This document shows, piece after piece, positions 25,795 to 39,917 of a stretch of 64,000 nucleotides of DNA. The notes beneath the pieces are model-generated. The model saw only the letters and a list, made by a program, of their open reading frames with translations. It was not told the origin of the DNA and made no database searches. Source of the DNA: an uncultured Chloroflexia bacterium (GTDB lineage: Bacteria > Chloroflexota > Anaerolineae > Anaerolineales > UBA4823); contig CAWELB010000008.1 in the NCBI GenBank assembly GCA_963809805.1, positions 684,157 to 748,156 of the forward strand, in the 5' to 3' direction. Position 1 is the stretch's first letter; each line of letters opens with the position of its first letter. Made by a program: the position numbers and the translations under genes.

Positions 25795-25836
25795 TGGGCG
25801 GAATAGGACTCGAACCTACGACCTCCTCTGTGTAAG
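25795..25836. repeat. attL: 42-bp exact duplicate of the 3' end of tRNA-Val
   Basis: tgggcggaataggactcgaacctacgacctcctctgtgtaag is identical to 39844-39885. Confidence 0.95.
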
Positions 25837-25945
25837 GCATATTTCCGGTGTTGTGGGATATTAACATGCCTATATATGGTGTATAGTGTGTCTGGTAGTG
25901 CTATATCTGGCGGTAAAAGTGAACATGTGTTACATCTGTTTCTAC

Positions 25946-25979
25946 AAATTGGTCACGAAATGGTCATGAAATGGTCATC
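25946..25979 (+). promoter_or_regulatory. three tandem 11-12-bp repeats (AAATGGTCAYG), putative arm-type recombinase sites (attL arm)
   Basis: aaattggtcacg aaatggtcatg aaatggtcatc. The same motif recurs at 39704-39767 near attR. Confidence 0.55.
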
Positions 25980-26252
25980 CCAATTATCTCAAATACTTGA
26001 GCACCGTCAGTATCACTTGCCTGGATCGTAGTCGTAGGCTGTCCAAGATCGGTGCCTTAGCTGCTGGCCTTGCTTTGCTGGTTAGGCTCTTAACTGCCCC
26101 GGTTACTCTTCCTGGTGAGAATAAGGCTCAATGGTAAATTGTTATTTTTTCTAGGACCTAACCAGATGTTAATATTAATTGATCGAGATATATAGGATGC
26201 ATAAAGTCTAAATTATCACATGTCATAAATAATGAAAAAAGGTGAATTACGA

Positions 26253-26654
26253 CTATTCCAGCGGTATAGGTTCAAAGGTTTTTCCGTGGAGATTGATCCT
26301 AAATGCTGCTGGGACACCTTTCTTCTGGAAGATTTTCACTTTACTTTCCATTTGGTTCCAGGCAATCATAATTTGCTTTGATATTTCTTTAATACCGACT
26401 TGATTTCCGCCGAGGTAGAATGCGACTAATTTGTATTTTTTTATCAATGCCTTTTGAAGCGGATTTTTTCTAATTGCCTTGTCTTTGGTGATAATCGCTA
26501 ATTTATTTTTCCCCGCATATTCCAGCCAAACTTCGTCTATGGTTCCACAATCAAATTTTTCAGTCACATGTTCAATATTTTCATACTCCAAAAGCCGTAG
26601 CGCTTGTACTAGTTGGATACCGATATTCTCATCAACCAAAAATCTTACTGCCAT
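26253..26654 (-). CDS. PIN-like toxin (DUF5615 / VapC45-like)
   Basis: 133 aa with N-terminal RFLVDENIG and ...LAIITKDKAIRK. It overlaps the upstream DUF433-type gene by 10 nt. Confidence 0.55.
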   Translation of the reverse strand: MAVRFLVDENIGIQLVQALRLLEYENIEHVTEKFDCGTIDEVWLEYAGKNKLAIITKDKAIRKNPLQKALIKKYKLVAFYLGGNQVGIKEISKQIMIAWNQMESKVKIFQKKGVPAAFRINLHGKTFEPIPLE

Positions 26655-27340
26655 AGACTGTGTTCAAAATGAACGGCAGTCCTTATTTGTGGCGCTGGAA
26701 TATTGAACCACTTACTCACAGGTTTTATTTGTTTGTGTTCACCTATGTAAAGGTCATAGATATTGCTCGTGGCTACACCGTATCCGATCAATGTTGGGCG
26801 ACCAAAAGATATTTGAGGATCGATCATAATCGATCCTTTCCTGCCTTCTGGATACCATCTACAGACGAAACCATGTTTCGTGATGTCCTCAAAGTCTAAT
26901 TTGTCATATAGTTTTTCTGTTATCTCTTTGAATACTCTTTGCCCAGATCCCATAAGCTGTACATAATCATCCTGTTGCAGCTTTAACACAATATCATCCC
27001 CACTGGTGAAGAATTTACTTCTGGCGAAATGAGGCGTCTGCAAGTGATCACGAGCGTCATCTAGGACTTTACGTATCCGCTGGAGAGTAAAACCTCGTTC
27101 AAGGAATAACTTTACAAAGAGTAAGTCAATTAAATCTAAGAACGAAGCATATGGTGATTCGGCAGATATTTTACGCTTAACAACCGGGCTCAACTCACCA
27201 CCCGAGTATTTATATCCCCTTAACCATCGTCTAACTCTCCACCGACTAATTCCAGCAAGACGACTTGTCATGGTTACAGAATAGGCTGGAGTTTCGAGTG
27301 ACCAGAGTAATTTACTCACTTCATCCTGCTCGATAGTCAT
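26645..27340 (-). CDS. HTH + DUF433-like antitoxin (VapB45-like)
   Basis: 231 aa. The N-terminal part is MerR-like (YSVTMTSRLAGISRWRVRRWLRGY). The C-terminal ISFGRPTLIGYGVATSNIY...IPAPQIRTAVHFE resembles DUF433. Confidence 0.5.
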   Translation of the reverse strand: MTIEQDEVSKLLWSLETPAYSVTMTSRLAGISRWRVRRWLRGYKYSGGELSPVVKRKISAESPYASFLDLIDLLFVKLFLERGFTLQRIRKVLDDARDHLQTPHFARSKFFTSGDDIVLKLQQDDYVQLMGSGQRVFKEITEKLYDKLDFEDITKHGFVCRWYPEGRKGSIMIDPQISFGRPTLIGYGVATSNIYDLYIGEHKQIKPVSKWFNIPAPQIRTAVHFEHSLWQ

Positions 27341-27629
27341 AATAATCCCTTGTTTTTACCAGTATATCTTTTTAATTGTTCGGAGCAAAACAAGTCGGCG
27401 CGTATAAATCTGGTGCATGATATAAGCCAAACCGGTTTAATACGGTGAGTACTTTCGCGACTTGTTCGCTCCTCCTAAGTCCACTCAAACAGTGCGAATT
27501 CATTACGCCAATAACAAATTATACATCAAATCTCCAGCGCTCCCTGCTTCCCCTCCTCCTTCTAAACCTCTCAGCCTTTTTGAACGTCCCATTCGAATCA
27601 CTTTGTTGACACACAAACTTTGGTTAGTT

Positions 27630-29258
27630 TTAGATGTCGAGGTGTGATTGTTTACCTTGTGCTTGTCTCACCTTTTGAGCAGTAATAAAAGTGCCGGTTT
27701 CGGGAGGCATTTGTACCATAGATCCTGCCAGAATCTGCTCGATGGTGAGGATTTGGAGACGAGGGAATGATTTCTGCCAGAATTCAGATTTGTAATAGCC
27801 GGCTGTTGATGCAGCTGCAATCATATCCCGGGTAGCTGACTCGAGTGTGATCAATACACCAATCTCAGCATGTTCATTATTCAGGGTGCCGATGAGATCT
27901 CGGATCGTACTGGCATTCACGTGGCCAGATTTAACCTGGACCAGGACTCGCTTGAGCTCCTGTTTGGCTGAATCGATGTAATTGATTACGCCATCGATGC
28001 CCTTATCGCTACCTTTTTTACCAGTTCCGCCCAAATCAGTACCGCCCAACGGTTTCGCACCAACCAAAGAAAGCGCCCACCATTGGAATTGGTAGCGATC
28101 ACGTTGTGCCAGATTGCGAGCAGATCCCAGATCCTCCGGTTTGCCGATAACTTCAAACAGTATTCCTGGGAACATGGCTTTCATTCGATTTTCGATAAGG
28201 TTGATAGAGAGATAAGTTATATCAATACCGATCCACTGACGGCCAAGTTTTTCGGCAGCTGCGATAGCTGTTCCACAGCCGCAAAATGGATCCAGGACTA
28301 TATCACCTGGGTTAGAGGAAGCCAGGATAATGCGCTCTAAAAGTGGAATTGGTTTTTGGGTCGGGTATCCTAAGCGCTCAGCTGCTTGTGCACCGATTGG
28401 GGGAATATCATCCCAAATGTCTTGAAGTGGCAGACCGGACATTTCGTCTAAATATCTTTTATATTGTGGAACTGCCCCTGCCTTGGTTTGGACGATTCGT
28501 CCTTGCTTGTAGAGTTCCTCCATGCGTTCTTTTTTATAGCGCCAGTACCTAACAACGCCTAGAAATTCATATTGGGGGTTACCTTTTGATGCTCCTCCTG
28601 GACCTGTTATGTCTCCCAACCTATATCGTCGTCCATCTGGATCTTTATACTTGTAAAAGCTGTTTAAATAACTTTCATCATAAGGTTGGTATATCTCGTT
28701 ATGGATGGCTTGTATTGATTTTGTGTAGTACAAGATTGTGTCATGAATCCTGCCCATATGTAAAACATTGCCTTGCTTTGAGTCGCTGTGCGCACTAGTT
28801 CGTTTCCAGATAATCTCATTTTGAAAGTTTTGGAAACCGAAAACCGTATCCAAAATAATTTTAAGATAATGGCTCGCAGTTGGGTCGCAGTGCAGATATA
28901 GGCTACCAGTGGGTTTTAGCACTCGCTGCAGCTCCACAAGGCGAGCGGCCATCATTATCAGATAAGCCAGCATCTGATTCTCACCGATAACGGTGCGTAA
29001 AGAGGCTAGGAGATCGTCAACTACGCCTGGGTTGGCCTGCAGAATATCGAGATAGGCCTGCTCAGCGGATGGACCCCAATGCCAGGTGTCATCGAAAGCG
29101 GTGATTTGAGCATCGGAGGAGATTCCACTTTCGTCCTTAAAAAGGACATTGTAGGACCGGGACGAATTGAAGGGTGGGTCCAAATAAATCAAATCGACTG
29201 AGCTCGCAGGCATTGCCCTCAGAATCGGGAGGTTATCACCATAATAAAGTTGGTTCAT
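27630..29258 (-). CDS. beta-class N6A/N4C DNA methyltransferase fused to a C-terminal Mrr-like PD-(D/E)xK domain
   Basis: Motif IV is IYLDPPFNS near the N-terminus, and motif I is VLDPFCGCGTAIAAA at ~aa 340. The C-terminal GIDGVINYID...VLVQVKSG resembles the D...(Q/E)xK restriction-endonuclease core. Confidence 0.8.
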   Translation of the reverse strand: MNQLYYGDNLPILRAMPASSVDLIYLDPPFNSSRSYNVLFKDESGISSDAQITAFDDTWHWGPSAEQAYLDILQANPGVVDDLLASLRTVIGENQMLAYLIMMAARLVELQRVLKPTGSLYLHCDPTASHYLKIILDTVFGFQNFQNEIIWKRTSAHSDSKQGNVLHMGRIHDTILYYTKSIQAIHNEIYQPYDESYLNSFYKYKDPDGRRYRLGDITGPGGASKGNPQYEFLGVVRYWRYKKERMEELYKQGRIVQTKAGAVPQYKRYLDEMSGLPLQDIWDDIPPIGAQAAERLGYPTQKPIPLLERIILASSNPGDIVLDPFCGCGTAIAAAEKLGRQWIGIDITYLSINLIENRMKAMFPGILFEVIGKPEDLGSARNLAQRDRYQFQWWALSLVGAKPLGGTDLGGTGKKGSDKGIDGVINYIDSAKQELKRVLVQVKSGHVNASTIRDLIGTLNNEHAEIGVLITLESATRDMIAAASTAGYYKSEFWQKSFPRLQILTIEQILAGSMVQMPPETGTFITAQKVRQAQGKQSHLDI

Positions 29259-29296
29259 ATAAAAAAACCTTTTTAATAGAATCTTATATAATTATC

Positions 29297-29488: not shown

Positions 29489-29498
29489 GGAGGTAATA

Positions 29499-29993
29499 AT
29501 GAACGAAAATGAGAATGAGATTCAAAATGAAGAAGCTGGTCTACAGATCTCGATCCAAGAAATGAAGCAGAATTTAACCAAGCAATTTGAAAGTATGGAT
29601 GCTATAAAATCTTCAGCTCGTACTATTTTTGGAGCTGGAAGTTTAATAATTTCCATTATAAGTGCTTTCGAATTAGGAAAAATGAACCAATCATGGTTTC
29701 TTCTTTTGTTTTTGTTTCTTTATATTTTATTAGTCATTATTTGTATTTATATTCTTGCTCCAGTGAAGATGGATCTTCCAGTAAAATCCGATTGGGGTGA
29801 AATATACGAATTTTTTATGGGCGAAAAAATCCCTGTGCTTCGGACCTGGGTATATTCATACATCCACACTATTCAGGAAAATAATAAAATAGTTGTCAAA
29901 CGAGAGAAACTGACTGTAATTGCAGGTATTATTTTAGCCATCATTGTTGTTTTGATATTGTCTTTTAGCTATTTGACACAACCAACTTCTTAA
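29499..29993 (+). CDS. hypothetical 3-TM membrane protein
   Basis: GGAGG-N5-ATG at 29499. An acidic or coiled N-terminus (MNENENEIQNEE...) is followed by two adjacent TM helices, a ~55-aa loop and a third TM. The gene is very AT-rich. Confidence 0.6.
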   Translation: MNENENEIQNEEAGLQISIQEMKQNLTKQFESMDAIKSSARTIFGAGSLIISIISAFELGKMNQSWFLLLFLFLYILLVIICIYILAPVKMDLPVKSDWGEIYEFFMGEKIPVLRTWVYSYIHTIQENNKIVVKREKLTVIAGIILAIIVVLILSFSYLTQPTS

Positions 29994-30194: not shown

Positions 30195-30316
30195 AAAATC
30201 GCTCCGCAGTGTGTTTGCACTCGGAGCGGTGACCAGGCCGGCGAATGGCCTAGCAAAATAGATTATACCATTGCCTTATAAAAGCCGTTCGCTACATATC
30301 GAACGGCTTTTATTTT
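30195..30316 (+). ncRNA. candidate structured leader / small RNA ending in an intrinsic terminator
   Basis: Three consecutive hairpins. The first is 30200-30228 (cgctccg...cggagcg). The second is 30235-30251 (aggcc-ggcgaat-ggcct). The third is a 12-bp stem, aaaagccgttcg / cgaacggctttt, at 30280-30311, followed by a T-rich run. Confidence 0.3.
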
Positions 30317-30327: not shown

Positions 30328-30918
30328 ATGGATTTTCTTAAAAGGTCTACACAATACATTCGAAAGAAAAAATTGATTAAAGCAAAACAGAGATATGATA
30401 ATCAGCTTGAAAAATTTACTCGAGCACAAGCCGATTGGTATGAATTACTGTGTAGGAGAGATAAAGCATCAATGAATGATATTGTTTATCTTAAAAACAT
30501 CGATAAGGTTTCATTATTACTGGCTCTTGATGGATATGATCCTAAAAAAACGCTCGATAAATTCGATGATATTGTTCGTGAAAAAAATCCCCTGCCCAAA
30601 ATGAATCCAATTACTTATTTGGATAGTCTTGAATCCAAAACATTAGCTGAAAGAGCAGACATTTTAGAATTCGCTACCCTTTATTGGATTGGTGAGCTTG
30701 ATCGAGATGATATTGACTTACTAATCCACGATATGAAAAACACTTCGGTGTTATTTTCGGATTTAGTTGGATTGCTCACATTCTGTGATTTGTCTGGCTG
30801 GTGGAAAGAAAAGGGATATAACAAGCAAAAGCTCAAAGAAAAATGGGAGAGAGATAAACAAATCGTCAATCGTGAGACGTGGCATATGCGATTTAAAAAC
30901 GCAAGGGGTATAACCTAA
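30328..30918 (+). CDS. hypothetical protein (196 aa), no recognisable domain
   Basis: AGGA-N7-ATG start. The gene is AT-rich and is followed by a clean terminator at 30960-30993. Confidence 0.6.
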   Translation: MDFLKRSTQYIRKKKLIKAKQRYDNQLEKFTRAQADWYELLCRRDKASMNDIVYLKNIDKVSLLLALDGYDPKKTLDKFDDIVREKNPLPKMNPITYLDSLESKTLAERADILEFATLYWIGELDRDDIDLLIHDMKNTSVLFSDLVGLLTFCDLSGWWKEKGYNKQKLKEKWERDKQIVNRETWHMRFKNARGIT

Positions 30919-31002: not shown

Positions 31003-31203
31003 ATGCCTGCACGAACAGAAAATTTCGTTTTCAGAATATCCCATCAAGAGCGAGCTTTAATCAATCAGATGGCGGAGCAAATGAGTAGGAAACCTGGAGA
31101 TGCTGCTCGTTTCGTGGTGCTTACTACTGCAAAAGAGATGATTAACGATGGGAAAATATTATTCGAAGCAAAGGAGGCGTCAAATGCTGAACCCTCCCGA
31201 TGA
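31003..31203 (+). CDS. small RHH/CopG-like DNA-binding protein (putative element regulator)
   Basis: GGAGG-N4-ATG at 31003. The 66-aa product has NFVFRISHQERALINQMAEQM, a beta-strand-helix pattern as in ribbon-helix-helix proteins. Confidence 0.45.
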   Translation: MPARTENFVFRISHQERALINQMAEQMSRKPGDAARFVVLTTAKEMINDGKILFEAKEASNAEPSR

Positions 31204-31435
31204 TCGTGATCGGCTAAGTTCTGAAAAACCCAAGGTGACATTGCAGCTCAGCAGCCTACCTGATAGGTTGTTGACAGCGCCTGAGGTCGCCAGCATTTTG
31301 CATGTGAGTGTGGTCCAGATTTACCGCTTGGCACGGCTGGGCGAGCTCGGATCAGTACCATTTCGGTCATCTGTGCGTTTTTTACCGATTCATGTCACAC
31401 AATTTATTTCTGGGCACGTTCGAGGTGTAGGCTAA
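31184..31435 (+). CDS. excisionase-family helix-turn-helix protein
   Basis: AGGAGG-N6-ATG at 31184. LLTAPEVASILHVSVVQIYRLARLGELGSV matches the MerR/Xis-type HTH_17 pattern. Confidence 0.6.
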   Translation: MLNPPDDRDRLSSEKPKVTLQLSSLPDRLLTAPEVASILHVSVVQIYRLARLGELGSVPFRSSVRFLPIHVTQFISGHVRGVG

Positions 31436-31621: not shown

Positions 31622-32017
31622 GTGAAAATTTCTGAAGCATTTCCATCAAAATATCTGAAAGCGGATGACTTGACCGGAAAAATTGCCGTGACTATCCTCG
31701 ATGTGCTCCAGGAGTCAGTGGGATCGGACAAATCCGTTAAGTTGGTTTTGTACTTTCGTGAACTTGCGAAGCCGATGATCTGCAACCGTACGAATGGTGA
31801 CATGATTGCGCAGTTGCATGGCGACGAAACAGATGGTTGGCGTTCCAAACGGATCGTACTGACAAGGGCATTAGTCGGATTTCAGGGGAAAAATGTCCCT
31901 GCAATTCGGGTATGTGACTTCATACCTGGAAGCAAGAAGGCAACTCCACCTCCACCCAGTGCTGAATTTGTAGAAGAAGCGGATTATGTAGAACCCGATG
32001 AAGTTGTGGATCTATAA
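31622..32017 (+). CDS. hypothetical phage-like protein
   Basis: 131 aa with a GTG start after AAGGAGA. It is co-oriented with and overlaps the primase gene. Confidence 0.5.
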   Translation: MKISEAFPSKYLKADDLTGKIAVTILDVLQESVGSDKSVKLVLYFRELAKPMICNRTNGDMIAQLHGDETDGWRSKRIVLTRALVGFQGKNVPAIRVCDFIPGSKKATPPPPSAEFVEEADYVEPDEVVDL

Positions 32018-33082
32018 CATAGGAGAGGGAGGGGTGTCACATCGTGGTGACACCCCTCCAGGATATATTATGGACGTAGCAACAGCAAAACAAGTTGACA
32101 TAATGCAGCTGCTAGGCGCCTGGCCATTACGCCGTGCTGCAAGCACAGGGGGAGGGGAGTTGCACGGTCCATGTCCATTTTGTGGAGGAACCGACAGATT
32201 TTGTGTACAGCCAAACCATCCTGAAGGGGGAAGGTGGTACTGCCGGCAGTGTGGTGATAATCGATGGCATGATGTCATCGACTTTGTGATGCGAAGATCC
32301 GGTGTAAGCATGCCCAAGGCAGTCCGGATGTTGGATACTTCCCAGACTGAACATGTGCTGCTGAAAGTAACTGCAAGTACAACAGGATCCGCTCCAGGCC
32401 CGGACCGGGCTACCTGGTCTGCAGCTGCATGGAAGTTTACCCGTGACTGTATTTCGTATCTGTGGGAGCCGGAAGGGGATAGAGCACGTGAATATCTACA
32501 CGGAAGAGGCCTGGACGATCAGACATTAGCCATTTGGCATATTGGATATAACCCATACAATGGGACTGACAGCTGGAGAAATTGGGGGGTCGCTCCTGGA
32601 GAAACGGTGCATCTGCCAGCTGGTATCGTCATCCCGTGTATTGCAGCTGGTGAGCTCCATTATGTGAAAGTCCGTAGGAATGACTGCAATCCAAAATATC
32701 AGATGCTGAAAGGATCGTCGTATTGGCTATTTGGGGCTGACACCTTCCAGGACAATTTGTTGGGCTATTTATTCGAGAGCGAATTGGACGTGTTGCTTGC
32801 TTGGCAGACGGGATTGAATATCGGATACGCATCAATTCCAGCCAGTGGAGTCCTGAAGCCGGAATGGTTGAAAAATCCAAATGTGAAGACATCCTGGTAG
32901 CACCGGATAATGATAGTGAGGGTGACAAAGCAGCTGAAAAGCTATGCAATCAGTCTTCCCATATCCAGCTGGCCGATCATGTCCCCACAGGTAAGGATTT
33001 GACTGAGTATTACCAAGCTGGTGGTGATGTTCTTACATGGTTATTGGAACAGCTGGAGCGTCTAAAATGCCCACAGAACTAG
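31998..33082 (+). pseudogene. Zn-finger / Toprim DNA primase, split by a 1-nt frameshift
   Basis: Zn-binding CPFCGGTDRF...YCRQCGDNRWHDVIDFVM and the Toprim Glu (FESELDVLLAWQ) are in frame A, which ends at 32900. The Toprim DxD (ILVAPDNDSEGDKAA) is in the frame of ORF 32801-33082. The switch maps to the A5 run at 32871-32875. Confidence 0.75.
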
Positions 33083-34098
33083 CGAACGACCTGGCAGGCA
33101 AGGAAAAGCTGAAATATACAATCAGAAACGCATCCTACGCACTGCAGCCCCAGGCACCACCGGATTGGATCGTGGATAAGCTGATCACCACCAGCAGTGT
33201 GTCCATTGTATTCGGTGAATCGGGAAGTAAGAAGACCTATGCCATGCTAAGCCTGGGAGTATGTGTGGCATTGGGTAAGGATTGGCTGAACTTCAAGACC
33301 AAGAAATCCCGTGTTCTGTTCGTCGACGAAGAGATGGGGGAATATTGGATCAGCCATAGGCTGGGTCGTGCCATACGGGGTGAGCTGGGTGACGAGAACA
33401 TACCATTCGACTTTGTATCACTGGCTGGATTCAAGCTGGATAAAAGAGAATCAGAAGAGCTGCTGGAAGCAGAGATTACACGGCTGGGGTCCCAACTTGT
33501 GATTATCGACAGTTTGAGTGAAATCATGGACGGCGATGAGAACAGCAAACAAGAAACACTGCCGGTCTTCAATGCCCTCCGGCGAATATCAGCGAGCACT
33601 GGAGCTGCCCTCATCCTGGTCCACCATCCGAACAAGATCGGGCTATATCGTGGATCTTCAGCCATAAAGCAGGCTGTTGACCTGATGGTGAAGGTCGAAT
33701 GCAAGGATGGATCCGACTGGATCAAGTTCAAATCCGAGAAGGTTCGACACATCGAGCCGGCCACGTTCAATGGGGTCTTCACCTGGACAGAAGACCAGTT
33801 CTATCTGCAGTTTGCGGAGAATACCAAGAATAAGGAGAAGGAACTATCCAAGAGCCAGAATTATGTAATTCAGTTCCTGAAGAAGCACGGTGCATCCACC
33901 CGTACAGATATTATGAATAATGCTGAAGTGTGCAGCGAGATATCTGCCAAGAACGCGGTCTATAGCCTGGCTGACCTGGGAATGATATACAGAACGAACC
34001 CCGGGGTAAGTGGCCCGGGTAACGATGCTATCTATGACCTGACTGAGAAGGGCAGCGCTTCCGATAGCAATGGCGGTGATGATGATTACACCGACTAA
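33037..34098 (+). CDS. RecA-like replicative ATPase/helicase (AAA_25 / RepA-like) with C-terminal wHTH
   Basis: Walker A is GESGSKKTY, Walker B is VLFVDEE / LVIIDSL, and ...LILVHHPNK is typical of AAA_25 proteins encoded next to primases. Confidence 0.7.
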   Translation: MVIGTAGASKMPTELANDLAGKEKLKYTIRNASYALQPQAPPDWIVDKLITTSSVSIVFGESGSKKTYAMLSLGVCVALGKDWLNFKTKKSRVLFVDEEMGEYWISHRLGRAIRGELGDENIPFDFVSLAGFKLDKRESEELLEAEITRLGSQLVIIDSLSEIMDGDENSKQETLPVFNALRRISASTGAALILVHHPNKIGLYRGSSAIKQAVDLMVKVECKDGSDWIKFKSEKVRHIEPATFNGVFTWTEDQFYLQFAENTKNKEKELSKSQNYVIQFLKKHGASTRTDIMNNAEVCSEISAKNAVYSLADLGMIYRTNPGVSGPGNDAIYDLTEKGSASDSNGGDDDYTD

Positions 34099-34113
34099 CA
34101 ACTTAAGCATAAT

Positions 34114-34213
34114 GTGTATTGTGTCCCGAATGTGTCCCGATGTTGCACATTCGGATGGTGTGACACATATGTGTCCCATCCCCCCTATTTATAGGGGATG
34201 GGACACAATACAC
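34114..34213. repeat. iteron / nested inverted-repeat cluster, putative replication origin
   Basis: GTGTCCC occurs at 34121, 34132 and 34171, and inverted at 34200-34206. There is a 14-bp outer IR (34114-34127 / 34200-34213), a 9-bp IR (34126-34134 / 34146-34154), a 14-bp palindrome (34162-34175) and a 13-bp hairpin (34171-34183 / 34194-34206). Confidence 0.6.
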
Positions 34214-34275
34214 ACTTCTTTGCTGGAATATTTTTTAACTTGTGCGCCGGCTGGCACACTTAAAAGGGTGATGAG

Positions 34276-34485
34276 ATGACGAAACGTGGCAGAAGGTCGA
34301 GCGGTAACTATAAGAAGGCCATCCTGGAATCGATCCAGGCTGGTGAGCTGCAGCCCCAGGCTGGCAAGGTGATCCAGGTGGATGTGATCCACAAGGATGG
34401 ATGTTCCTTCTTGCGTGGCGGTGAATGTGACTGCGATCCGGATATATTGCAGCGATCTGATACAAAGGAGAGCGAGCATGGCTAA
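34276..34485 (+). CDS. small hypothetical protein
   Basis: 69 aa with a basic N-terminus and a CxC...C cluster. It overlaps the next gene by 8 nt. Confidence 0.4.
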   Translation: MTKRGRRSSGNYKKAILESIQAGELQPQAGKVIQVDVIHKDGCSFLRGGECDCDPDILQRSDTKESEHG

Positions 34486-34777
34486 GAAAACTGATAACAA
34501 TCAGGCTGAAATTGTTAGAGGGTTACGCTCAATAGGCGCATCCGTGACTGTACTGTCATCCGTTGGCGGTGGCTGCCCGGATTTAATCTGTGGTTATCGT
34601 GAAAGGAATTATCTGTTTGAGTGCAAAAATCTGGAAGGTAGAGGCGACCGGCTCACCCCAGCTGAAGAGGCCTGGATCCGTTCATGGGGCGGCCAGATTG
34701 CGATAATTTTCAACGTCGAGCAAGCACTGGCAGTTATGCAGGATGCTGATTATGAAGATGCAGTCGATCTATCATAG
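34478..34777 (+). CDS. VRR-NUC domain nuclease
   Basis: AGGAG-N7-ATG at 34478. The PD-(D/E)xK core is GGCPDLICG...LFECKN. Confidence 0.65.
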   Translation: MAKKTDNNQAEIVRGLRSIGASVTVLSSVGGGCPDLICGYRERNYLFECKNLEGRGDRLTPAEEAWIRSWGGQIAIIFNVEQALAVMQDADYEDAVDLS

Positions 34778-34887: not shown

Positions 34888-35391
34888 ATGGCACGTGGCA
34901 AACCTAACATACTTTCGAGAAAACCGACCGACCGGAAGCGTACAGAGGCAAAAGCGGAGGCGGAGGAAGCATTCAGAGCAGGAGATCTTCCCAACTCGCC
35001 ACCCGTTGAGCTCAGGGGAATGCCTGCAGCTCAGAGGGCATGGCGCCAGTTGCTGAGGGCACATTCACAATTACCTGGGCAGCTCTTTAATAGATTGGAC
35101 ATGGATTTTATCATCATCTACTGCCAGGCTGTTCAATCAAGGCAGCGGGCTGTAGTTATGGAAATCGCAGCACATAAGATGTTTTTAGAGGGTCACATGG
35201 ATCTCGATAGCCTACTGAAAATTAGGACGGAGCTCCGTATGAGCAGCAAACTCGTAACGGATCTTCTGAAACAACTATTTTGTACGCCAAGATCCAGAGG
35301 GGGTGTTTCGCCAGTTCGTGAGGAAACGCCCGAGCAGGTCGTCGAGCGAGAGATTGCAGATTTGAATAAACTACTAGGGGGATCCAGATGA
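34888..35391 (+). CDS. phage terminase small subunit, P27-family-like
   Basis: 167 aa with a basic N-terminus (ARGKPNILSRKPTDRKR), ...AAQRAWRQLL...IIIYCQAVQSRQRA... and ...LKQLFCTPRSRGGV, following the Terminase_4 pattern. Confidence 0.5.
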   Translation: MARGKPNILSRKPTDRKRTEAKAEAEEAFRAGDLPNSPPVELRGMPAAQRAWRQLLRAHSQLPGQLFNRLDMDFIIIYCQAVQSRQRAVVMEIAAHKMFLEGHMDLDSLLKIRTELRMSSKLVTDLLKQLFCTPRSRGGVSPVREETPEQVVEREIADLNKLLGGSR

Positions 35392-35780
35392 AGAAGCAAA
35401 TGATTTTCGACAAGGCGTCAGATGTCCCTTATGACCATCAAATTCTTTGCGTGGATGACCTCGAGAATGAGGAGCTTGAAATATACACTCTCATATTACC
35501 CAAACTGACCGATCCAGAACCTGCGCAGCTCCACATGTTGGCCTGTTACAGTTTTGCATCTGCTGAATTCAGAAAAGCAAACGGGAATCATGCGCTTCAG
35601 GCCTGGCTGCAACGCTGCATGGTCTACGCCCGGAATGGTCTCGGATTATGGAAACCTAAATTTATTGACTATTTTGTACTGCTGCTTGATGAAGAGCAAG
35701 GTTGGCCGCCGGTCTTATATTTTCTGGAACAAGATTGGCAGTATGGCAAAGAACTACCCCTGCCTGCTGCGGTTGATTAA
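35388..35780 (+). CDS. hypothetical protein
   Basis: 130 aa. It is coupled to the TerS stop by an ATGA overlap. Confidence 0.5.
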   Translation: MKKQMIFDKASDVPYDHQILCVDDLENEELEIYTLILPKLTDPEPAQLHMLACYSFASAEFRKANGNHALQAWLQRCMVYARNGLGLWKPKFIDYFVLLLDEEQGWPPVLYFLEQDWQYGKELPLPAAVD

Positions 35781-35820: not shown

Positions 35821-36225
35821 ATGGCAAACAAATTTAATAAATCTACTGTCACGATTTCAAAAGGCTCAAAAGAATCAACACCCCTTTTTCTTGGTGGTTC
35901 AAAAATAAGAACTCTTGGATTGCCAGTCGACGAAAACGGATCGGTTAATTTCTCGGGATCAGCTTTGAGTTTCTTCGGGACGTATGACGGACCACACTGG
36001 TTTTCACTTAACGATGTCACCGGGAAAACTTTGGTGGTGTCTACCAGAGTGCAGCAAAATTACATCACAGCGCCCTCTGCTTTAGCATCGGCACCGGCGA
36101 TGGTTCCGTTATCCCTACCAAATGCTGCGTTATTCGAAGGGGTCCTAACGGTCATCTTGATCTCAAATGTAATCGAGAGTGCAGATCGATCGATCGATGT
36201 TTATACCGAGGGTTCAAATCTGTAG
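35821..36225 (+). CDS. hypothetical protein
   Basis: Internal ATG at 35821 of ORF 35554-36225. The 134-aa product is rich in beta-type residues. The upstream part of the ORF overlaps the previous gene. Confidence 0.45.
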   Translation: MANKFNKSTVTISKGSKESTPLFLGGSKIRTLGLPVDENGSVNFSGSALSFFGTYDGPHWFSLNDVTGKTLVVSTRVQQNYITAPSALASAPAMVPLSLPNAALFEGVLTVILISNVIESADRSIDVYTEGSNL

Positions 36226-36421: not shown

Positions 36422-37033
36422 ATGGTGGACAAAAGGACAGACATCGAAAAAGCGCTGACAAAACTCAGCACAGCCAGGGATAGGATCGCCCAGCAGCTCG
36501 AAGAGAGTGAAGCACAGGTTAAACTGTTGCAGGAAGTGGTCAATAGCGCATTGTTGGAAAGTGGGGAGACTAACCACCTCTCCGAATTGAGTATTAACAG
36601 GGAGAGGGTCAATTCTCTCCATCAGGCCTTGCAGTATGCCAACGGCCAGGTCAATCAAGCTCGCCAGGCCCTTGAGGATCATGACCGGGCAGCTCAAGGC
36701 GGGATTATCATGGACATGGATAAAAAGGTCCAACAGGCAATCGTGAATCTGCAGGCCAAAATTGGAGAAGCTGGATTGAAGGCTGAGGTGGATAAACTGG
36801 GTGAAATGATTGCGGAACTAGAGCGACTGTCGAATAGCGGTGTACAGGTTATTGATGTCGCAGAGCATTGCTATTCGGCAAAAAATATCCATGATCGTTT
36901 ATCCCGCTCACTTCTGGCCTCCTGGCAGGATATTGAGGGATTGGGTTGGGGACAAGCTCATTCTCAAGCCTCGAGCCGGCCGAATTATATCGAAGGGTTT
37001 GGTGTGAGGCCTGGCAATTTGATCAGTTCATAA
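36422..37033 (+). CDS. hypothetical coiled-coil protein
   Basis: 203 aa with heptad-like Q/E/L-rich sequence, preceded by AGGAGA. Confidence 0.5.
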   Translation: MVDKRTDIEKALTKLSTARDRIAQQLEESEAQVKLLQEVVNSALLESGETNHLSELSINRERVNSLHQALQYANGQVNQARQALEDHDRAAQGGIIMDMDKKVQQAIVNLQAKIGEAGLKAEVDKLGEMIAELERLSNSGVQVIDVAEHCYSAKNIHDRLSRSLLASWQDIEGLGWGQAHSQASSRPNYIEGFGVRPGNLISS

Positions 37034-37205
37034 GTATGCCTGACAGGTCACGGGCTGGCCCGTTGACCTTTTGGGAGTTTGCTACCTGTTAGAGGGTCGG
37101 GGTGGCAAAGAATCCTTCTCCTTTCGTAGTGGGCTGTCGGAATGGGCCGGCAGCCCGACAGGAGGTAATCTGTGACTGGAATCCTCGGACGACTATCAGA
37201 TACGG

Positions 37206-37424
37206 ATGATGAATAAACCAAAAGCGCTCGAGCCTGAATTTACCCCTGTTTTGTCGGATATATTCACAGCCGAACAGGAGGTGCAGCTGGCAAGGCTTCT
37301 GACTGAGCTGTTGTTGATTGGCTGGGGTTCATTGGAGATCGTGATTGGTGGGCATAGAAAGAAATTCTTCCGGCCAAAGAGGTCGATCACGATTCGTGGA
37401 GCTGAGGATAATGCTGAAAACTGA
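37206..37424 (+). CDS. small hypothetical protein
   Basis: 72-aa ORF with no recognisable domain. Confidence 0.3.
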   Translation: MMNKPKALEPEFTPVLSDIFTAEQEVQLARLLTELLLIGWGSLEIVIGGHRKKFFRPKRSITIRGAEDNAEN

Positions 37425-37526
37425 TGAATTTTATTATATATTGACCTTAAATGCCTGCAGAATAGCTCTGGGAGCCTCCAGGAAGGCTCAGGAAGCTCTA
37501 CTATTAACTATATGGTGGAGTTATGC

Positions 37527-37554
37527 TTGACATTGAGTCAATTCGCCGTACAAT
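37527..37554 (+). promoter_or_regulatory. near-consensus sigma70 promoter (TTGACA-16-TACAAT)
   Basis: TTGACA is at 37527-37532 and TACAAT at 37549-37554. Confidence 0.6.
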
Positions 37555-37560
37555 CGCTGT

Positions 37561-37697
37561 AGCTTCAATAAGAAGCGGTCCCGGAAGGTGTTGAAGCACC
37601 AACCAGGACCTAACCTATCAACCGGGTGAACGGTCAACAGGCTAATATAATTTTACTCGACTGTCCCCGGATTATCAAAATCGGGGATTTTATTATT
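37561..37697 (+). ncRNA. candidate ~135-nt structured RNA / terminator-containing leader upstream of int
   Basis: It starts at the predicted +1 of the promoter above. There is a 7-bp stem (37562-37568 / 37591-37597). A terminator, tccccg-N12-cgggga followed by ttttattatt, lies at 37664-37697, 30 nt before the int ATG. Confidence 0.35.
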
Positions 37698-37727
37698 CCT
37701 GAGACGCAAGCGAAAGTTAGGTGTTGA

Positions 37728-38861
37728 ATGGCAAAGATCCGTAAACATGGTGAGGGCAACATCCACCAGCTAACATCTGGTAGCTGGAGGGGACGGCTGA
37801 CAGTAGATGGCCGGCGAGTGTACTTCACATCGAAATCTATGAGCGAGGTAAAAACTTGGCTCCGCAAAACAGCGGAGCAGATTGACCAGGGGATGACGTA
37901 CCAGGCTGCGAAGATTACAATGGAGCAGTACCTGGATAACTGGCTCGCTGGGAAAAAGACCTCCACCAGGTCAACTACCTACAGCCATTATGCGTCAATT
38001 TGTAATAAATACCTTAAACCGGCGTTTGGCAGGATCCGGGTGAAGGACATCACAGCCGATAAAATCAAATTTGTTTACAACAAATGGCAAAACGAGGGAG
38101 TTGGTGCTTATACCATCCGGAAGGCGCATAATGTACTTCACAACGCCCTGGAAGAAGCTGAGAGTACCGGAATGGTCATGCGGAATGTGTGTGATCATGC
38201 GAAACCTCCCAAAGAACCGGATAACGAGGTGAAACCCTGGACGGCTGACCTGGCCAACCAATTCCTAACTACCGCAAAAGGACACCGGTTGTATGCACTT
38301 TTTTACCTGGCACTGGCTACCGGCATGAGACAGATGGAGTTGTTGGGTTTAAAGTGGTCGGATCTGGACCGAGGCAGTGGGATCCTGCACGTGCAACGAC
38401 AGCTTTCACGGTCCGGTGGGCTCGAGCTGCCATTGAAAACCAGGAATGCAAAGCGCTCGATCGAGCTAGGGGCGGTCACGCTGCAGGTGCTGGAGGAGCA
38501 TTACCAGCTGCAGCTGCAGGAATGCCAGAATGGCGGCAACCATTGGAAGGATACCGGCCTGATGTTCACCAGCACGACCGGAACACCGCTTATTTACAAG
38601 AACATGATGGACCGGGATTTTAAACCTCTGATGACAGCTGCCAGGGTGCCGATGATCCGCTTTCATGATCTACGGCATACTGCAGCCAGTTTGTTGATCT
38701 GCAATAGAGTGCCGATATTCATCGTTTCCAAGATTCTGGGCCATGCCAGGCCCAGCATTACAAGTGATATCTACGGCCACCTTGTACCTGGGTCAATGGA
38801 TGGAATTGGCGATATGATGGATGAAATGATCGCACCGATTCAGATCAATCTATCAATCTGA
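37728..38861 (+). CDS. int: tyrosine recombinase / phage integrase
   Basis: Catalytic signature: ATGMRQMEL (Arg), FHDLRHTAASLL (HxxR) and LGHARPSITSDIYGH (His/Tyr). It has an N-terminal SAM-like domain and lies adjacent to the tRNA. Confidence 0.95.
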   Translation: MAKIRKHGEGNIHQLTSGSWRGRLTVDGRRVYFTSKSMSEVKTWLRKTAEQIDQGMTYQAAKITMEQYLDNWLAGKKTSTRSTTYSHYASICNKYLKPAFGRIRVKDITADKIKFVYNKWQNEGVGAYTIRKAHNVLHNALEEAESTGMVMRNVCDHAKPPKEPDNEVKPWTADLANQFLTTAKGHRLYALFYLALATGMRQMELLGLKWSDLDRGSGILHVQRQLSRSGGLELPLKTRNAKRSIELGAVTLQVLEEHYQLQLQECQNGGNHWKDTGLMFTSTTGTPLIYKNMMDRDFKPLMTAARVPMIRFHDLRHTAASLLICNRVPIFIVSKILGHARPSITSDIYGHLVPGSMDGIGDMMDEMIAPIQINLSI

Positions 38862-38899
38862 TCTCCAGGAGGAAGAAATAAACTTGAAAGGACCCAAAC

Positions 38900-39634
38900 A
38901 TGGATAAAAAACGCGAACTAATTCACCTCGAGCGCTTCAAAGAGAATTGTACTTTCTTTCCAGAGGGTGAAATTGACTGCACTGAGAGGCCTGATTTTAT
39001 CATTCATACAAACGAAAAGATCGTTGGTATTGAACACACAGAGATATTCCAGCCAGGGCCTCCAGATGGAAGTTCCCTTCAAGCTCAAGATGTTTTAGCG
39101 CAGAAAATTGTTAAGCAAGCAAGTGATCTTTATTTACAAGATAAAAATAAACCAATTTTAGTTCAGATAATGTTTCGTTCGGGCATTTTATTAAAGAAAA
39201 AAAGAATCGATCACCTTGCTGTAAGTATTTATCAAATAATAAAGAGAGAATCATTACTCCCTGGACAGATCATTACTTTGCACAGAACGCACGTAAATTA
39301 TAGATATTTTCCAAGCGAAATTGCGATGATCCATATTGCAGCGCAACCGAATGGTGAAAATAATTTCTGGTACTGTTCGAGTGCGGGTATCATTCCTGAT
39401 GTCGATGCTGATTATATACAAGAGAAAATCGATAGCAAGAAACAGGAGATAGACTTTTATAGATCTCGGTGCTCAGAAATATGGCTGCTTATTGTGGCGG
39501 AGTATCTGCGGATTCCGAAAGCAATAAATATTTCCAGAGATGCTGTTTTACATCATTATCACACACAATTCAATAGAGTTTTTATATTCTGGTTTATGAC
39601 AGGGGAATATATCGAGCTTCAATTGACGATTTAA
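38900..39634 (+). CDS. hypothetical protein, possible PD-(D/E)xK-like nuclease
   Basis: 244 aa and AT-rich. ERPDFIIHTNEKIVGIEHTEI is loosely PD...E-like. It lies between int and attR. Confidence 0.5.
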   Translation: MDKKRELIHLERFKENCTFFPEGEIDCTERPDFIIHTNEKIVGIEHTEIFQPGPPDGSSLQAQDVLAQKIVKQASDLYLQDKNKPILVQIMFRSGILLKKKRIDHLAVSIYQIIKRESLLPGQIITLHRTHVNYRYFPSEIAMIHIAAQPNGENNFWYCSSAGIIPDVDADYIQEKIDSKKQEIDFYRSRCSEIWLLIVAEYLRIPKAINISRDAVLHHYHTQFNRVFIFWFMTGEYIELQLTI

Positions 39635-39703
39635 AAACCAATGATTGAACGGGTGAGATCATCGCAGCGATTCGGGTAGATCTTCCATTGGTGAATTCGA
39701 AGT

Positions 39704-39767
39704 AATTGGTCACGAATTGGTCACGAATTGACCATGAATTTTAAGAATCAACAAATAATGTGACCAA
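39704..39767. promoter_or_regulatory. arm-type repeat cluster at the attR side (AATTGGTCACG x2, inverted copies)
   Basis: aattggtcacg is at 39704 and 39715. aattgaccatg at 39726 contains the inverted core, and gtgaccaa at 39760-39767 is another inverted copy. Confidence 0.55.
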
Positions 39768-39843
39768 CGCCTATAAAATCGACTAGTTCAAACTAAAAAC
39801 CGGCTAATAAGCCGGTGTTTGCAATAATAAGTGCTCATTTTTG

Positions 39844-39885
39844 TGGGCGGAATAGGACTCGAACCTACGACCTCCTCTGTGTAAG
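39844..39885. repeat. attR core (inside tRNA-Val)
   Basis: Identical to 25795-25836. Confidence 0.95.
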
Positions 39886-39917
39886 AGAGGCGTTCTAACC
39901 AACTGAACTATCCGCCC
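39844..39917 (-). tRNA. tRNA-Val (anticodon TAC)
   Basis: The reverse complement GGGCGGATAGTTCAGTTGGTTAGAACGCCTCTCTTACACAGAGGAGGTCGTAGGTTCGAGTCCTATTCCGCCCA folds as a canonical cloverleaf. It has a 7-bp acceptor stem, a GTTC/GAAC D stem, a CCTCT/AGAGG anticodon stem, and a TTCGAGT T loop. Confidence 0.95.

What the first reader, a model, noticed from the sequence alone, without database searches (positions are those of the whole stretch)
25795..39917. 14.1-kb tRNA-Val-integrated element with a phage-satellite (PICI-like) gene set
An exact 42-bp direct repeat (25795-25836 = 39844-39885) duplicates the 3' end of tRNA-Val(TAC) and brackets the element. The tyrosine integrase sits next to the intact tRNA. 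Inside are an Xis-type HTH, an RHH protein, a Zn-finger/Toprim primase, a RecA-like helicase, an iteron cluster, a VRR-NUC nuclease and a P27-type small terminase. I see no recognisable capsid, portal, large terminase, tail or lysis gene in 14 kb. Int + pri/rep + ori + TerS only, plus accessory cargo, is the architecture of phage-inducible chromosomal islands. If the host is Chloroflexota-like, I know of no described satellite in that lineage.
Basis: partly seen in the sequence, partly recalled or inferred. Interest (0 to 1): 0.72.

Follow-up and report, generated by a model that had tools for sequence, protein, structure and literature searches.

The report
Phage-satellite-like island in an Anaerolineae genome
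A 14-kb mobile island inserted in a tRNA-Val gene of an uncultured Anaerolineae (Chloroflexota) bacterium has the genes to cut itself out, copy itself and start DNA packaging, but none to build a virus particle, so it most likely parasitises a helper phage and belongs to a small, undescribed family of such elements.

Summary
An exact 42-bp direct repeat of the tRNA-Val(TAC) 3' end brackets 14.05 kb. A close relative genome has the same locus empty. 11-bp integrase arm-type repeats sit inside both ends. The element encodes a tyrosine integrase, an RHH-like protein plus an HTH_17 Xis/AlpA-like protein, a Zn-ribbon/Toprim primase (1-nt frameshift in this copy), an AAA_25 helicase, a TGTGTCCC iteron cluster, a VRR-NUC-like nuclease, a divergent P27-family small terminase, and cargo (PIN_10 protein with an upstream partner, MTase-Mrr fusion). 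The TerS call is remote but supported four ways. No capsid, portal, TerL, tail, lysis or relaxase gene is detectable, and no unassigned ORF exceeds 244 aa. The host is Anaerolineae. About a dozen metagenomic relatives share the RHH/Xis front end and int, with TerS+p130 and/or nuclease+p134+p203, and swap replication modules. Three are delimited: 8.6 kb and about 13.4 kb between att repeats, and a 15.5-kb circular IMG/VR contig. Some carry an HK97 capsid protein, prohead protease, gp10-like or tape-measure-like gene; none has a recognisable TerL or portal. Best reading: a helper-dependent, PICI-like satellite of a new family. Helper, induction and packaging are untested. Interest is moderate.

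The parts
25795..25836 (.). attL: 42-bp copy of the tRNA-Val 3' end
   Evidence: Exact direct repeat of 39844-39885. The same 42-mer bounds the relative in L087.
25936..25989 (+). Left arm-type repeats (11-bp units, TGGTCAYG core), probable integrase arm-binding sites
   Evidence: The same motif pairs lie inside both ends of L082 and L087.
26253..26654 (-). Cargo: PIN_10/DUF5615 protein, likely toxin
   Evidence: PF18478 1.6e-15.
26645..27340 (-). Cargo: 231-aa HTH-containing partner overlapping the PIN gene, likely antitoxin
   Evidence: Weak MerR_1/HTH_28 hits and phrog_31673 3e-06. The pairing is inferred from the 10-nt overlap.
27630..29258 (-). Cargo: N6/N4 DNA methyltransferase fused to an Mrr_cat restriction-endonuclease-like domain
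   Evidence: PF01555 5e-41, PF04471 9e-09; PADLOC MTase_II 8e-65.
29499..29993 (+). Cargo: small hydrophobic protein of unknown function
   Evidence: No family hit. The hydrophobic stretches were read from the translation.
30198..30312 (+). Conserved non-coding segment: 14-bp hairpin, small hairpin, terminator-like hairpin with T-run. Candidate sRNA/leader or protein-binding site.
   Evidence: About 45 nt nearly invariant in the window, L082 and L087. Two compensatory pairs in the terminator stem. No Rfam match.
30328..30918 (+). First rightward ORF (196 aa), unknown, variable among relatives
   Evidence: No hits.
31003..31203 (+). RHH-like small regulator, conserved in front of the Xis-like gene across the family
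   Evidence: Family alignment shows a beta-alpha-alpha pattern. Profile found in 10 loci. PDB 2k1o at E=0.059 only.
31148..31435 (+). HTH_17 excisionase / AlpA-like regulator
   Evidence: PF12728 3e-06; phrog_66 'excisionase and transcriptional regulator' 2e-07.
31622..32017 (+). 131-aa protein of a phage-associated family of unknown function
   Evidence: phrog_21613 2e-10.
31998..33082 (+). Zn-ribbon + Toprim DNA primase, split by a 1-nt deletion at 32873 in this copy
   Evidence: PF08273, PF13155, phrog_510/47. Intact 349-aa gene in L081.
33037..34098 (+). AAA_25 (RecA-fold, RepA/DnaB-like) replicative helicase
   Evidence: PF13481 1.5e-29 and several primase/helicase PHROGs.
34113..34214 (.). 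Iteron cluster, probable replication origin: TGTGTCCC three times direct and once inverted, plus palindromes
   Evidence: 4 of 5 window occurrences fall within 88 bp.
34478..34777 (+). VRR-NUC-like PD-(D/E)XK nuclease (99 aa)
   Evidence: phrog_93 5e-06; conserved G.PDL...E.KN motif; 4qbl VRR-NUC E=0.35. Found upstream of TerS in the window, L084, L095 and L097, and also in L115/L119.
34888..35391 (+). Divergent P27-family (Terminase_4) small terminase subunit
   Evidence: phrog_83 7e-06. PF05119 sub-threshold over nearly the whole model in 5 of 13 family members. BFVD fold hits dominated by TerS/COG3747. 31 of 96 remote profile hits are Terminase_4, best 4e-17.
35388..35780 (+). p130: unknown helical protein. 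Its start overlaps the TerS stop, and it follows the TerS-like gene in all 10 loci that carry it.
   Evidence: AF2 pLDDT 66 with no fold match. Not a TerS paralogue.
35821..36225 (+). p134: unknown, probably beta-rich protein of the conserved late module
   Evidence: Homologues in L084, L097, L115 and L119. Only weak galectin-like PDB hits, E=0.03.
36422..37033 (+). p203: conserved protein of about 200 aa, probably coiled-coil. Candidate morphogenesis or interference factor.
   Evidence: 18 homologues, all about 200 aa, no domain. Only weak coiled-coil/SMC-type hits.
37206..37424 (+). p72: small conserved ORF before int
   Evidence: Homologues in L085 and L087.
37728..38861 (+). Tyrosine integrase
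   Evidence: PF00589 1e-21, PF14659 1e-11, phrog_1 7e-66. 62-65% identical to the integrases of L082/L087, which use the same att site.
38900..39634 (+). Cargo ORF (244 aa) between int and attR
   Evidence: phrog_35865, unknown function, 7e-18.
39704..39746 (+). Right arm-type repeats (AATTGGTCACG, about 2.5 copies, plus a degenerate copy)
39843..39917 (-). Intact tRNA-Val(TAC). Its 3' 42 nt (39844-39885) form attR.

Best explanation
The element is an integrated, helper-dependent phage satellite that works like a PICI.

Shown by sequence:
- It is a discrete insertion in the 3' end of tRNA-Val. It has duplicated att cores and arm-type repeats at both ends, a tyrosine integrase and an Xis/AlpA-type HTH protein.
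- It has its own replicon: primase, AAA_25 helicase and an adjacent iteron origin.
- It has a small terminase subunit of the P27/Terminase_4 family, and no large terminase, portal, capsid, tail or lysis gene.

Inferred mechanism: a co-resident or infecting siphovirus-type helper triggers excision by Int plus Xis. The circle replicates from the iteron origin. The satellite TerS, probably together with the co-inherited p130, recognises a site on the satellite DNA and recruits the helper's TerL, so satellite DNA is packed into helper-made particles.

More speculative roles:
- The VRR-NUC-like nuclease next to TerS may play the part that HNH nucleases play for P27/HK97-type cos terminases, or it may resolve replication intermediates.
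- p134 and the probably coiled-coil p203 are candidates for capsid-size redirection or helper interference.
- The left-arm cargo (PIN_10 protein with its partner, MTase-Mrr fusion) is accessory and may serve stabilisation or defence.

The 1-nt frameshift in the primase of this copy is either an assembly error or a recent inactivation.
For: Boundaries and empty site.

Arm repeats at both ends, conserved in relatives.

Int, Xis, primase, helicase and iterons.

TerS: phrog_83 7e-06. Terminase_4 sub-threshold across the model in 5 of 13 members. Fold hits to TerS/COG3747. The family profile reaches 122 cluster representatives, and 31 of the 96 remote ones scanned are bona fide Terminase_4 with no competing family.

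No structural, lysis or conjugation family hit in Pfam, PHROGs, NCBIfam or PADLOC. The only ORFs of 300 aa or more are the MTase, primase, helicase and integrase.

Family evidence:
- An identical element occurs in a second assembly.
- Complete relatives are bounded by the same att at about 13.4 kb (L082) and 8.6 kb (L087); L097 is a 7.9-kb contig spanning the whole RHH-to-int module.
- A 15.5-kb relative was assembled as a circle in IMG/VR.
- Replication modules are swapped while TerS+p130, and often nuclease, p134 and p203, are kept.
- Relatives carry single head or tail genes (HK97 MCP, S78 protease, gp10-like, TMP-like) but never a recognisable TerL or portal.
- The MCPs have 44-57% relatives on contigs of up to 37 kb whose ORF layout looks phage-like; these were not annotated with family searches.
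Against: No helper phage was identified.

There is no evidence of induction, of a circular junction for this element itself, or of this element's DNA in virions.

The TerS homology is remote. It is below the Pfam gathering score, there is no PDB fold match, and the best BFVD E-value is 2.4e-03.

No capsid-morphogenesis or interference protein could be identified. p130, p134 and p203 remain of unknown function.

Gene order differs from canonical PICIs.

The primase is frameshifted in this copy.

A related sub-lineage (L115/L119) keeps nuclease, p134, p203 and int but lacks the TerS+p130 pair, so the family backbone can exist without this TerS.
Confidence: 0.6

Rival explanations
1. It is a non-satellite integrative, self-replicating genomic island, or a decayed remnant of one, that picked up a TerS-like DNA-binding gene. 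It excises and replicates but is not packaged by a phage. It spreads vertically or by unknown means, and mainly serves as a cargo or defence island.
For: The cargo consists of a PIN_10 protein with its partner and an MTase-Mrr fusion. The primase is frameshifted. The L115/L119 relatives lack the TerS+p130 pair. No helper is known.
Against: The only function I know of for P27-family TerS is initiation of phage DNA packaging (own knowledge). TerS+p130 is conserved across relatives whose replication modules are swapped. Relatives carry MCP, prohead protease, gp10-like and TMP-like genes. A circular relative sits in a viral-contig catalogue. The family is compact and has a conserved order, unlike random decay.
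Confidence: 0.2
2. It is a very small autonomous temperate virus whose structural proteins (p130, p134, p203, ORF196, ORF244) are too divergent to recognise.
For: Five or six conserved ORFs have no assignable function. L086 was catalogued as a viral genome.
Against: The unassigned coding capacity is about 1,400 aa, with no ORF over 244 aa. That is too little for MCP, portal, TerL and a tail (own knowledge of typical sizes). A TerS without a TerL implies dependence on an external packaging motor. Relatives that do carry an HK97 MCP still lack a recognisable portal and TerL.
Confidence: 0.1
3. It is an integrative mobilisable element (IME) moved by a conjugative system.
For: Int/Xis plus a replication module also occur in IMEs. 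Several ORFs are unassigned.
Against: There is no relaxase, T4CP or other conjugation domain in any ORF. No recognisable oriT was sought or seen. The TerS and the phage-head genes in relatives point to phage-mediated transfer.
Confidence: 0.05

Closest known systems
PICIs (phage-inducible chromosomal islands, including SaPIs), as defined in de Sousa et al. 2023, PMC10085698
   Same: Size of about 14 kb. Site-specific integration by a tyrosine integrase. An AlpA/Xis-type regulator. Its own primase/helicase and ori. Its own TerS. No tail, holin, portal or TerL. Accessory or defence-type cargo near the ends.
   Different: The host phylum is Chloroflexota. De Sousa et al. found more than 99.9% of putative PICIs in Proteobacteria or Firmicutes. 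Int lies at the far end and is co-directional with the operon, not next to a divergent stl/str switch. No Stl-like repressor and no Cpm/Ppi/Rpp homologue was recognised. The TerS is of the P27/Terminase_4 type and is paired with a VRR-NUC-like nuclease and three family-specific proteins. No similarity beyond generic domains was seen in the Pfam and PHROG scans; no direct comparison with described PICI sequences was run.
Capsid-forming PICIs (cfPICI; de Sousa et al. 2023, PMC10085698)
   Same: Some relatives (L083, L086, L087, L082) carry an HK97-type MCP, an S78 prohead protease or a gp10-like head-tail protein next to the TerS. A nuclease gene lies beside TerS, where cfPICIs have HNH.
   Different: The window element has no MCP, protease, portal, adaptor, connector or TerL. 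Even the capsid-carrying relatives lack a recognisable TerL and portal, which are core genes of cfPICIs.
P4-like satellites
   Same: Integrase plus primase/helicase replicon, an AlpA-type regulator, and dependence on helper structural genes. The conserved structured non-coding segment upstream of the operon loosely recalls P4's CI RNA (my own recollection, speculative).
   Different: No Psu, Delta, Sid or Epsilon homologues were detected. P4 has no TerS and uses the helper's cos site.
Tycheposons and other tRNA-targeting satellite-like islands of marine bacteria (from my own knowledge of Hackl et al. 2023; not read here)
   Same: tRNA-targeted integration, tandem arrays at one tRNA, modular replication genes, and occasional capsid or packaging genes.
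   Different: Different hosts. No homology between the two was tested here.

Membership tests
PICI (SatelliteFinder definition, PMC10085698) | Integrase | tested here: met
   PF00589 1e-21, phrog_1 7e-66.
PICI (SatelliteFinder definition, PMC10085698) | Regulation module homologous to alpA, merR or stl | tested here: inconclusive
   An HTH_17 / phrog_66 'excisionase and transcriptional regulator' protein and an RHH-like protein are present. SatelliteFinder's own profiles were not available. No Stl-like repressor was seen.
PICI (SatelliteFinder definition, PMC10085698) | Primase-replicase module | tested here: met
   Zn-ribbon/Toprim primase, AAA_25 helicase and iterons. The primase is frameshifted in this copy and intact in L081.
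PICI (SatelliteFinder definition, PMC10085698) | Small terminase subunit | tested here: met
   Remote but convergent support: phrog_83 7e-06, Terminase_4 by transitive search (31 of 96), and BFVD fold hits.
PICI (SatelliteFinder definition, PMC10085698) | Capsid morphogenesis gene | tested here: inconclusive
   No homologue was found. p134 and p203 are candidates by position only.
PICI (SatelliteFinder definition, PMC10085698) | No tail, holin, portal, or head-tail connector/adaptor genes | tested here: met
   No such Pfam or PHROG hit in any ORF. No unassigned ORF exceeds 244 aa.
PICI (classical description; from my own knowledge of the PICI literature, not read here) | Canonical order: int and repressor at one end, transcribed divergently from xis-pri-rep-packaging genes | tested here: not met
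   Int is the last core gene. It is co-directional with the operon and lies at the tRNA-proximal end. The divergent leftward genes are cargo.
PICI (classical description; from my own knowledge of the PICI literature, not read here) | Helper-phage-induced excision, replication and high-frequency packaging | not testable with these tools
   This needs induction or virome data for this host. The only indirect hint is the circular relative L086 in IMG/VR.
cfPICI (PMC10085698) | Own MCP, protease, portal, head-tail adaptor and connector, HNH and TerL | tested here: not met
   None is present in the window. Relatives have an MCP, protease or gp10-like gene, but no recognisable TerL or portal.
P4-like satellites (PMC10085698) | Psu-Delta-Sid operon, Epsilon, alpha primase | tested here: not met
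   No PHROG or Pfam hit to these in any ORF. Specific SatelliteFinder profiles were not run.
IME / ICE | Relaxase, with or without T4CP/T4SS | tested here: not met
   No relaxase or conjugation family in Pfam, PHROGs or NCBIfam.
Defective prophage | Remnants of structural or lysis modules, idiosyncratic decay, no conserved compact relatives | tested here: not met
   No structural remnants. About a dozen compact relatives keep the same order, three of them delimited (two by att repeats, one circular).

The most novel reading that the evidence does not exclude
This is the first recognised member of a modular family of phage satellites in Anaerolineae (Chloroflexota). The family runs from minimal forms of about 8 kb (int, RHH/Xis, a helicase, nuclease, TerS, p130, p134, p203) to circular forms of about 15 kb that carry their own HK97 capsid gene. 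It uses a hijacking module with no described counterpart: a VRR-NUC-like nuclease, a P27-type TerS, an obligatory partner (p130), and two unknown proteins that may remodel helper capsids. It may also be regulated through a conserved structured RNA next to attL.
Probability: 0.45. Interest if true: 0.7.

Novelty: new variant of a known kind. Interest (0 to 1): 0.58.

Why it matters
The satellites described in the 2023 survey I read lie mostly in Proteobacteria and Firmicutes. That survey predicts many undescribed families elsewhere (PMC10085698).

A bona fide satellite family in Anaerolineae would extend phage-satellite-host three-way interactions to a phylum where phage biology is almost unexplored. 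Anaerolineae are abundant, mostly uncultured filamentous bacteria of soils, sediments and wastewater plants.

It would provide marker genes for finding more satellites in metagenomes: the TerS+p130 pair and the nuclease-p134-p203 module.

It would offer a natural series from TerS-only to capsid-encoding satellites within one family. That bears on how PICI-type and capsid-forming satellites evolve from one another.

It also flags a tRNA-Val hotspot that holds tandem arrays of such elements carrying toxin-like and DNA-modification cargo.

Tried and rejected
- Exact-sequence look-ups of two window proteins found nothing.
- Single-protein scans of IMG/VR with the TerS and the helicase found no close relative. 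The alignment-based scans worked.
- The TerS profile against PDB sequences, and Foldseek of the TerS model against PDB, gave nothing significant. tblastn of the TerS against isolate phages gave only noise.
- I suspected p130 was a second, degenerate TerS. hhalign (probability 0.4%), Pfam and Foldseek do not support that.
- PDB profile searches for p130, p134 and p203 gave only insignificant hits: Cmr4, galectin, Atu0240.
- PADLOC and NCBIfam hits to p203 (JetC/LmuB/SMC-like) are weak (PADLOC 4e-05 and 5e-04; NCBIfam 0.003, far below its cutoff). I read them as coiled-coil similarity, not homology.
- I searched IMG/VR for the invariant 39-nt non-coding motif, hoping to find a helper phage with the same site. 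Only the L087 contig came back.
- Rfam found nothing for that motif, or for the 165-bp repeats.
- The 513-aa ORF of relative L088 was checked as a possible TerL or portal. It has no match in isolate phages or PDB.
- blastn of the element core against isolate phages and plasmids gave no match.
- The rival readings were rejected as the main explanation: defective prophage, IME and autonomous mini-virus.

Full report
**1. The observation**

ARAGORN finds tRNA-Val(tac) at 39843-39917 on the minus strand, and Rfam agrees. The exact 42-bp direct repeat 25795-25836 = 39844-39885 is present and corresponds to the 3' part of that tRNA.

11-bp tandem units with a TGGTCAYG core lie just inside both ends, at 25936-25989 and 39704-39746. 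That is the usual layout of integrase arm-type sites.

**2. Host and empty site**

The FAA-hydrolase gene 1 kb to the right of the tRNA is 89% identical to a MAG labelled uncultured Chloroflexia (L001). The next best hits are Anaerolineales and Anaerolineae MAGs. The order tRNA-Val(tac), RpiR regulator, FAA hydrolase is conserved across these genomes.

L001 to L004 each carry the 42-mer once. In L001, window 25124-25395 aligns to L001 7766-8038 and window 39842-44654 aligns to L001 8292-13110, with nothing in between. The 14.05 kb is therefore a discrete insertion in an Anaerolineae chromosome.

**3. Gene content**

Pfam and PHROG scans give the following.

| Coordinates (strand) | Assignment |
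|---|---|
| 26253-26654 (-) | PIN_10 |
| 26645-27340 (-) | overlapping HTH partner of the PIN gene |
| 27630-29258 (-) | N6_N4 MTase fused to Mrr_cat |
| 31148-31435 | HTH_17, phrog_66 excisionase/regulator |
| 31998-32900 | Zn_Ribbon_Prim primase part |
| 32801-33082 | Toprim_2, in another reading frame |
| 33037-34098 | AAA_25 helicase |
| 34397-34777 | phrog_93 endonuclease, 5e-06 |
| 34888-35391 | phrog_83 small terminase, 7e-06 |
| 37728-38861 | tyrosine integrase |
| 38900-39634 | phrog_35865, unknown function |

Further points:
- No ORF hits a capsid, portal, large terminase, tail, lysis, relaxase or conjugation family. PADLOC and NCBIfam add only the MTase.
- The only ORFs of 300 aa or more are the MTase, primase, helicase and integrase. 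The longest unassigned ORF is 244 aa. From my knowledge of typical sizes, that leaves no room for a hidden portal, TerL or HK97-fold MCP.
- The iteron claim holds. Four of the five TGTGTCCC sites in the 64-kb window lie in 34120-34207, directly after the helicase stop, with flanking palindromes.
- The RHH label rests on a beta-alpha-alpha pattern in a family alignment and a weak PDB hit.
- The VRR-NUC label rests on a conserved G.PDL...E.KN motif, phrog_93, and PDB 4qbl at E=0.35.

**4. The primase frameshift**

A second assembly (L081, ENA ERZ25039554) holds the same element at 99.7% identity. There the primase is one intact 349-aa gene. The window lacks a single G at 32873. L081 in turn has many indels near its contig end, which break its integrase. 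So the window's frameshift may be an assembly error or a recent mutation. It cannot be decided here.

**5. The TerS assignment**

The protein has only 13 close homologues at the 90% cluster level, all unnamed. Four lines of evidence converge:
- phrog_83 at 7e-06.
- Pfam Terminase_4 (PF05119) below threshold but across nearly the whole model, in 5 of 13 family members, best 1.3e-03.
- An AlphaFold model (pLDDT 78, all-helical). Its best BFVD matches are mostly 'terminase small subunit / COG3747', best E 2.4e-03. PDB gave nothing.
- A profile of the family reaches 122 cluster representatives among 1.84 billion proteins. Of the 96 remote ones scanned, 31 are Terminase_4 at E<=1e-3, best 4e-17, and no other family competes.

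I accept it as a divergent P27-family TerS.

**6. The family**

Contexts of the TerS, p130 and p203 homologues define a family.

| Locus | What it is | Notable content |
|---|---|---|
| L082 | About 13.4 kb; contig ends in the two halves of the same tRNA-Val att and has the same arm repeats | 736-aa primase, Laminin_G_3 protein, HK97-gp10-like protein, TerS, p130 homologue (121 aa), a 133-aa ORF at the p134 position that does not match the p134 profile, p203 homologue (201 aa), Prim-Pol, Int |
| L087 | Exact 42-mer at 6626-6667 and 15195-15236, bracketing an 8.6-kb element | RHH, Xis, gp10-like, TerS, p130, S78 prohead protease, Int |
| L097 | 7.9-kb contig | RHH, Xis, DnaB, nuclease, TerS, p122, p129, p203, Int |
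| L084, L095 | Same late module | DUF3987 or DUF3854 replication proteins |
| L083 | DnaB/AAA_25 helicase | S78 protease and a 322-aa HK97 MCP directly before TerS |
| L086 | IMG/VR contig with a 127-bp terminal overlap, so a 15.5-kb circle | Helicase, primase, 426-aa MCP (PF05065 8e-44), TerS, p130, 882-aa tape-measure-like protein (phrog_5493 4e-60), DdrB-like protein, Int |
| L115, L119 | Integrated in host chromosomes | RHH, Xis, nuclease, p134, p203 and Int, but no TerS or p130 |

In L087, another integrase lies before the first att copy. Non-tRNA DNA follows the second. This is a tandem array at the same tRNA.

In all 10 loci that carry the TerS-like gene, p130 follows it immediately. 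In the window its start overlaps the TerS stop. No locus has a recognisable TerL or portal. The largest unexplained ORFs of L086 and L088 were checked without result.

The MCP of L086 has 44-57% relatives on IMG/VR contigs of up to 37 kb. Judged from ORF sizes and order only, these look like ordinary tailed phages with portal-sized, protease, MCP and tape-measure-sized ORFs. They could represent the helper lineage.

**7. Backbone versus cargo**

In L082 and L087, a conserved non-coding segment of about 115 nt follows attL and the arm repeats directly. In the window the same segment is at 30198-30312. The 4.3-kb block with the PIN gene, its partner, the MTase-Mrr gene and the hydrophobic-protein gene lies between it and the arm repeats, so that block is inserted cargo.

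The segment has a nearly invariant 14-bp hairpin and a terminator-like hairpin with two compensatory pairs. It has no Rfam family. Its role is open: an sRNA or leader, the int terminator in the circular form, or a protein-binding site.

**8. The unknown proteins**

- **p130** has 6 homologues. Its model has pLDDT 66 with a confident three-helix core. It has no fold or profile match, and hhalign does not relate it to TerS.
- **p134** gives only weak galectin-like hits.
- **p203** has 18 homologues, all about 200 aa, with no domain and only weak coiled-coil/SMC-type hits.

I therefore cannot name a capsid-redirecting or interference gene.

**9. Interpretation**

Shown:
- A site-specific integrative element with its own replicon and a TerS.
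- No particle, lysis or conjugation genes.
- Membership of a conserved, compact, modular family, some members of which carry single phage head genes and one of which was assembled as a circle.

Inferred: because the only function I know of for a TerS is to start packaging by a TerL, an element with a TerS and no TerL must borrow a helper's motor and particle. That is how a PICI-type satellite works.

Against strict PICI membership:
- Int is distal and co-directional.
- No Stl-like repressor or Cpm/Ppi/Rpp homologue is present.
- Helper dependence is untested.

It is not a cfPICI, P4-like element, PLE, IME or ordinary defective prophage, judged by the features tested (see the membership table).

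**10. Novelty**

De Sousa et al. [quoted passage not shown] They expect undescribed families. The term 'Chloroflex' does not occur in that paper. No paper in the searchable library links phage-inducible islands to Anaerolineae or discusses phage satellites in Chloroflexota beyond passing mentions. The element core has no DNA match in isolate phages or plasmids.

I rate it a new variant of a known kind and of moderate interest. The concept is expected, but the lineage, the late module and the within-family range from TerS-only to capsid-carrying forms are new. All of this is so far in silico.

Noticed in passing
window 16559-16732, 19356-19524, 23100-23262, 25126-25293; also L001 4971-5137 and 7766-8038; L007 5574-5737 and 7939-8117: A repeat of about 165 bp with a strongly conserved 80-nt core (…CCCCTGCTCGTTTGAAAGCTGGTTATATAGAGGGGGTAAGAAGACC…CAACAATTGAA) recurs between minus-strand ORFs without Pfam hits, left of the element. 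It looks like a cassette array. There is no Rfam match, and RNAalifold is unconvincing.
   Followed up: partly
window ~19454-25124: This 5.7-kb stretch is absent from the closest relative L001, although L001 shares 16554-19454 at 92% identity. It encodes a 904-aa ORF and several smaller ORFs with no Pfam hits, and it is bounded by copies of the 165-bp repeat. It is a second variable region next to the tRNA-Val island.
   Followed up: partly
window 32873: A single-base deletion relative to the 99.7%-identical copy L081 splits the primase into two frames. It is either an assembly error or a recent inactivation.
   Followed up: partly
window 30198-30312; L082 181-293; L087 6840-6950: A conserved structured non-coding segment: an invariant 14-bp hairpin and a terminator-like hairpin with compensatory changes. 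In relatives it lies immediately after attL and the arm repeats. It has no Rfam family. It could be an sRNA or leader, or a packaging or protein-binding site.
   Followed up: partly
L087 (IMGVR_UViG_3300032118_001440) 5365-15333: A tandem array at the same tRNA-Val att. An integrase lies upstream of the first 42-mer (6626-6667). An 8.6-kb element with an S78 protease and a gp10-like gene follows. After the second 42-mer (15195-15236) comes non-tRNA DNA, which suggests a further element.
   Followed up: partly
L086 (IMGVR_UViG_3300047586_000247), whole contig: A circular 15.5-kb relative (127-bp terminal overlap). It carries Int, primase, helicase, HK97 MCP, TerS, p130 and an 882-aa tape-measure-like protein, but no recognisable TerL or portal. 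This is an odd partial set of structural genes.
   Followed up: partly
L115 4296-12607; L119 1513-10143: A sub-lineage integrated at another chromosomal site (L115 lies next to trigger factor/ClpP). It keeps RHH, Xis, the VRR-NUC-like nuclease, p134, p203 and Int, but has a different 130-aa ORF where TerS+p130 would be. This suggests TerS+p130 is an exchangeable specificity cassette. L115 and L116 show the start of a second, similar element about 7 kb downstream.
   Followed up: no
window 25761-25788: An 8-bp tandem repeat (AACGTTCA, 3.5 copies) sits directly against the outer side of attL. Its significance is unknown.
   Followed up: no
L004 1141-1784: Another Anaerolineae MAG has a 67%-identical (nucleotide level) integrase next to the same tRNA-Val. 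The site is therefore used repeatedly by this integrase lineage.
   Followed up: no
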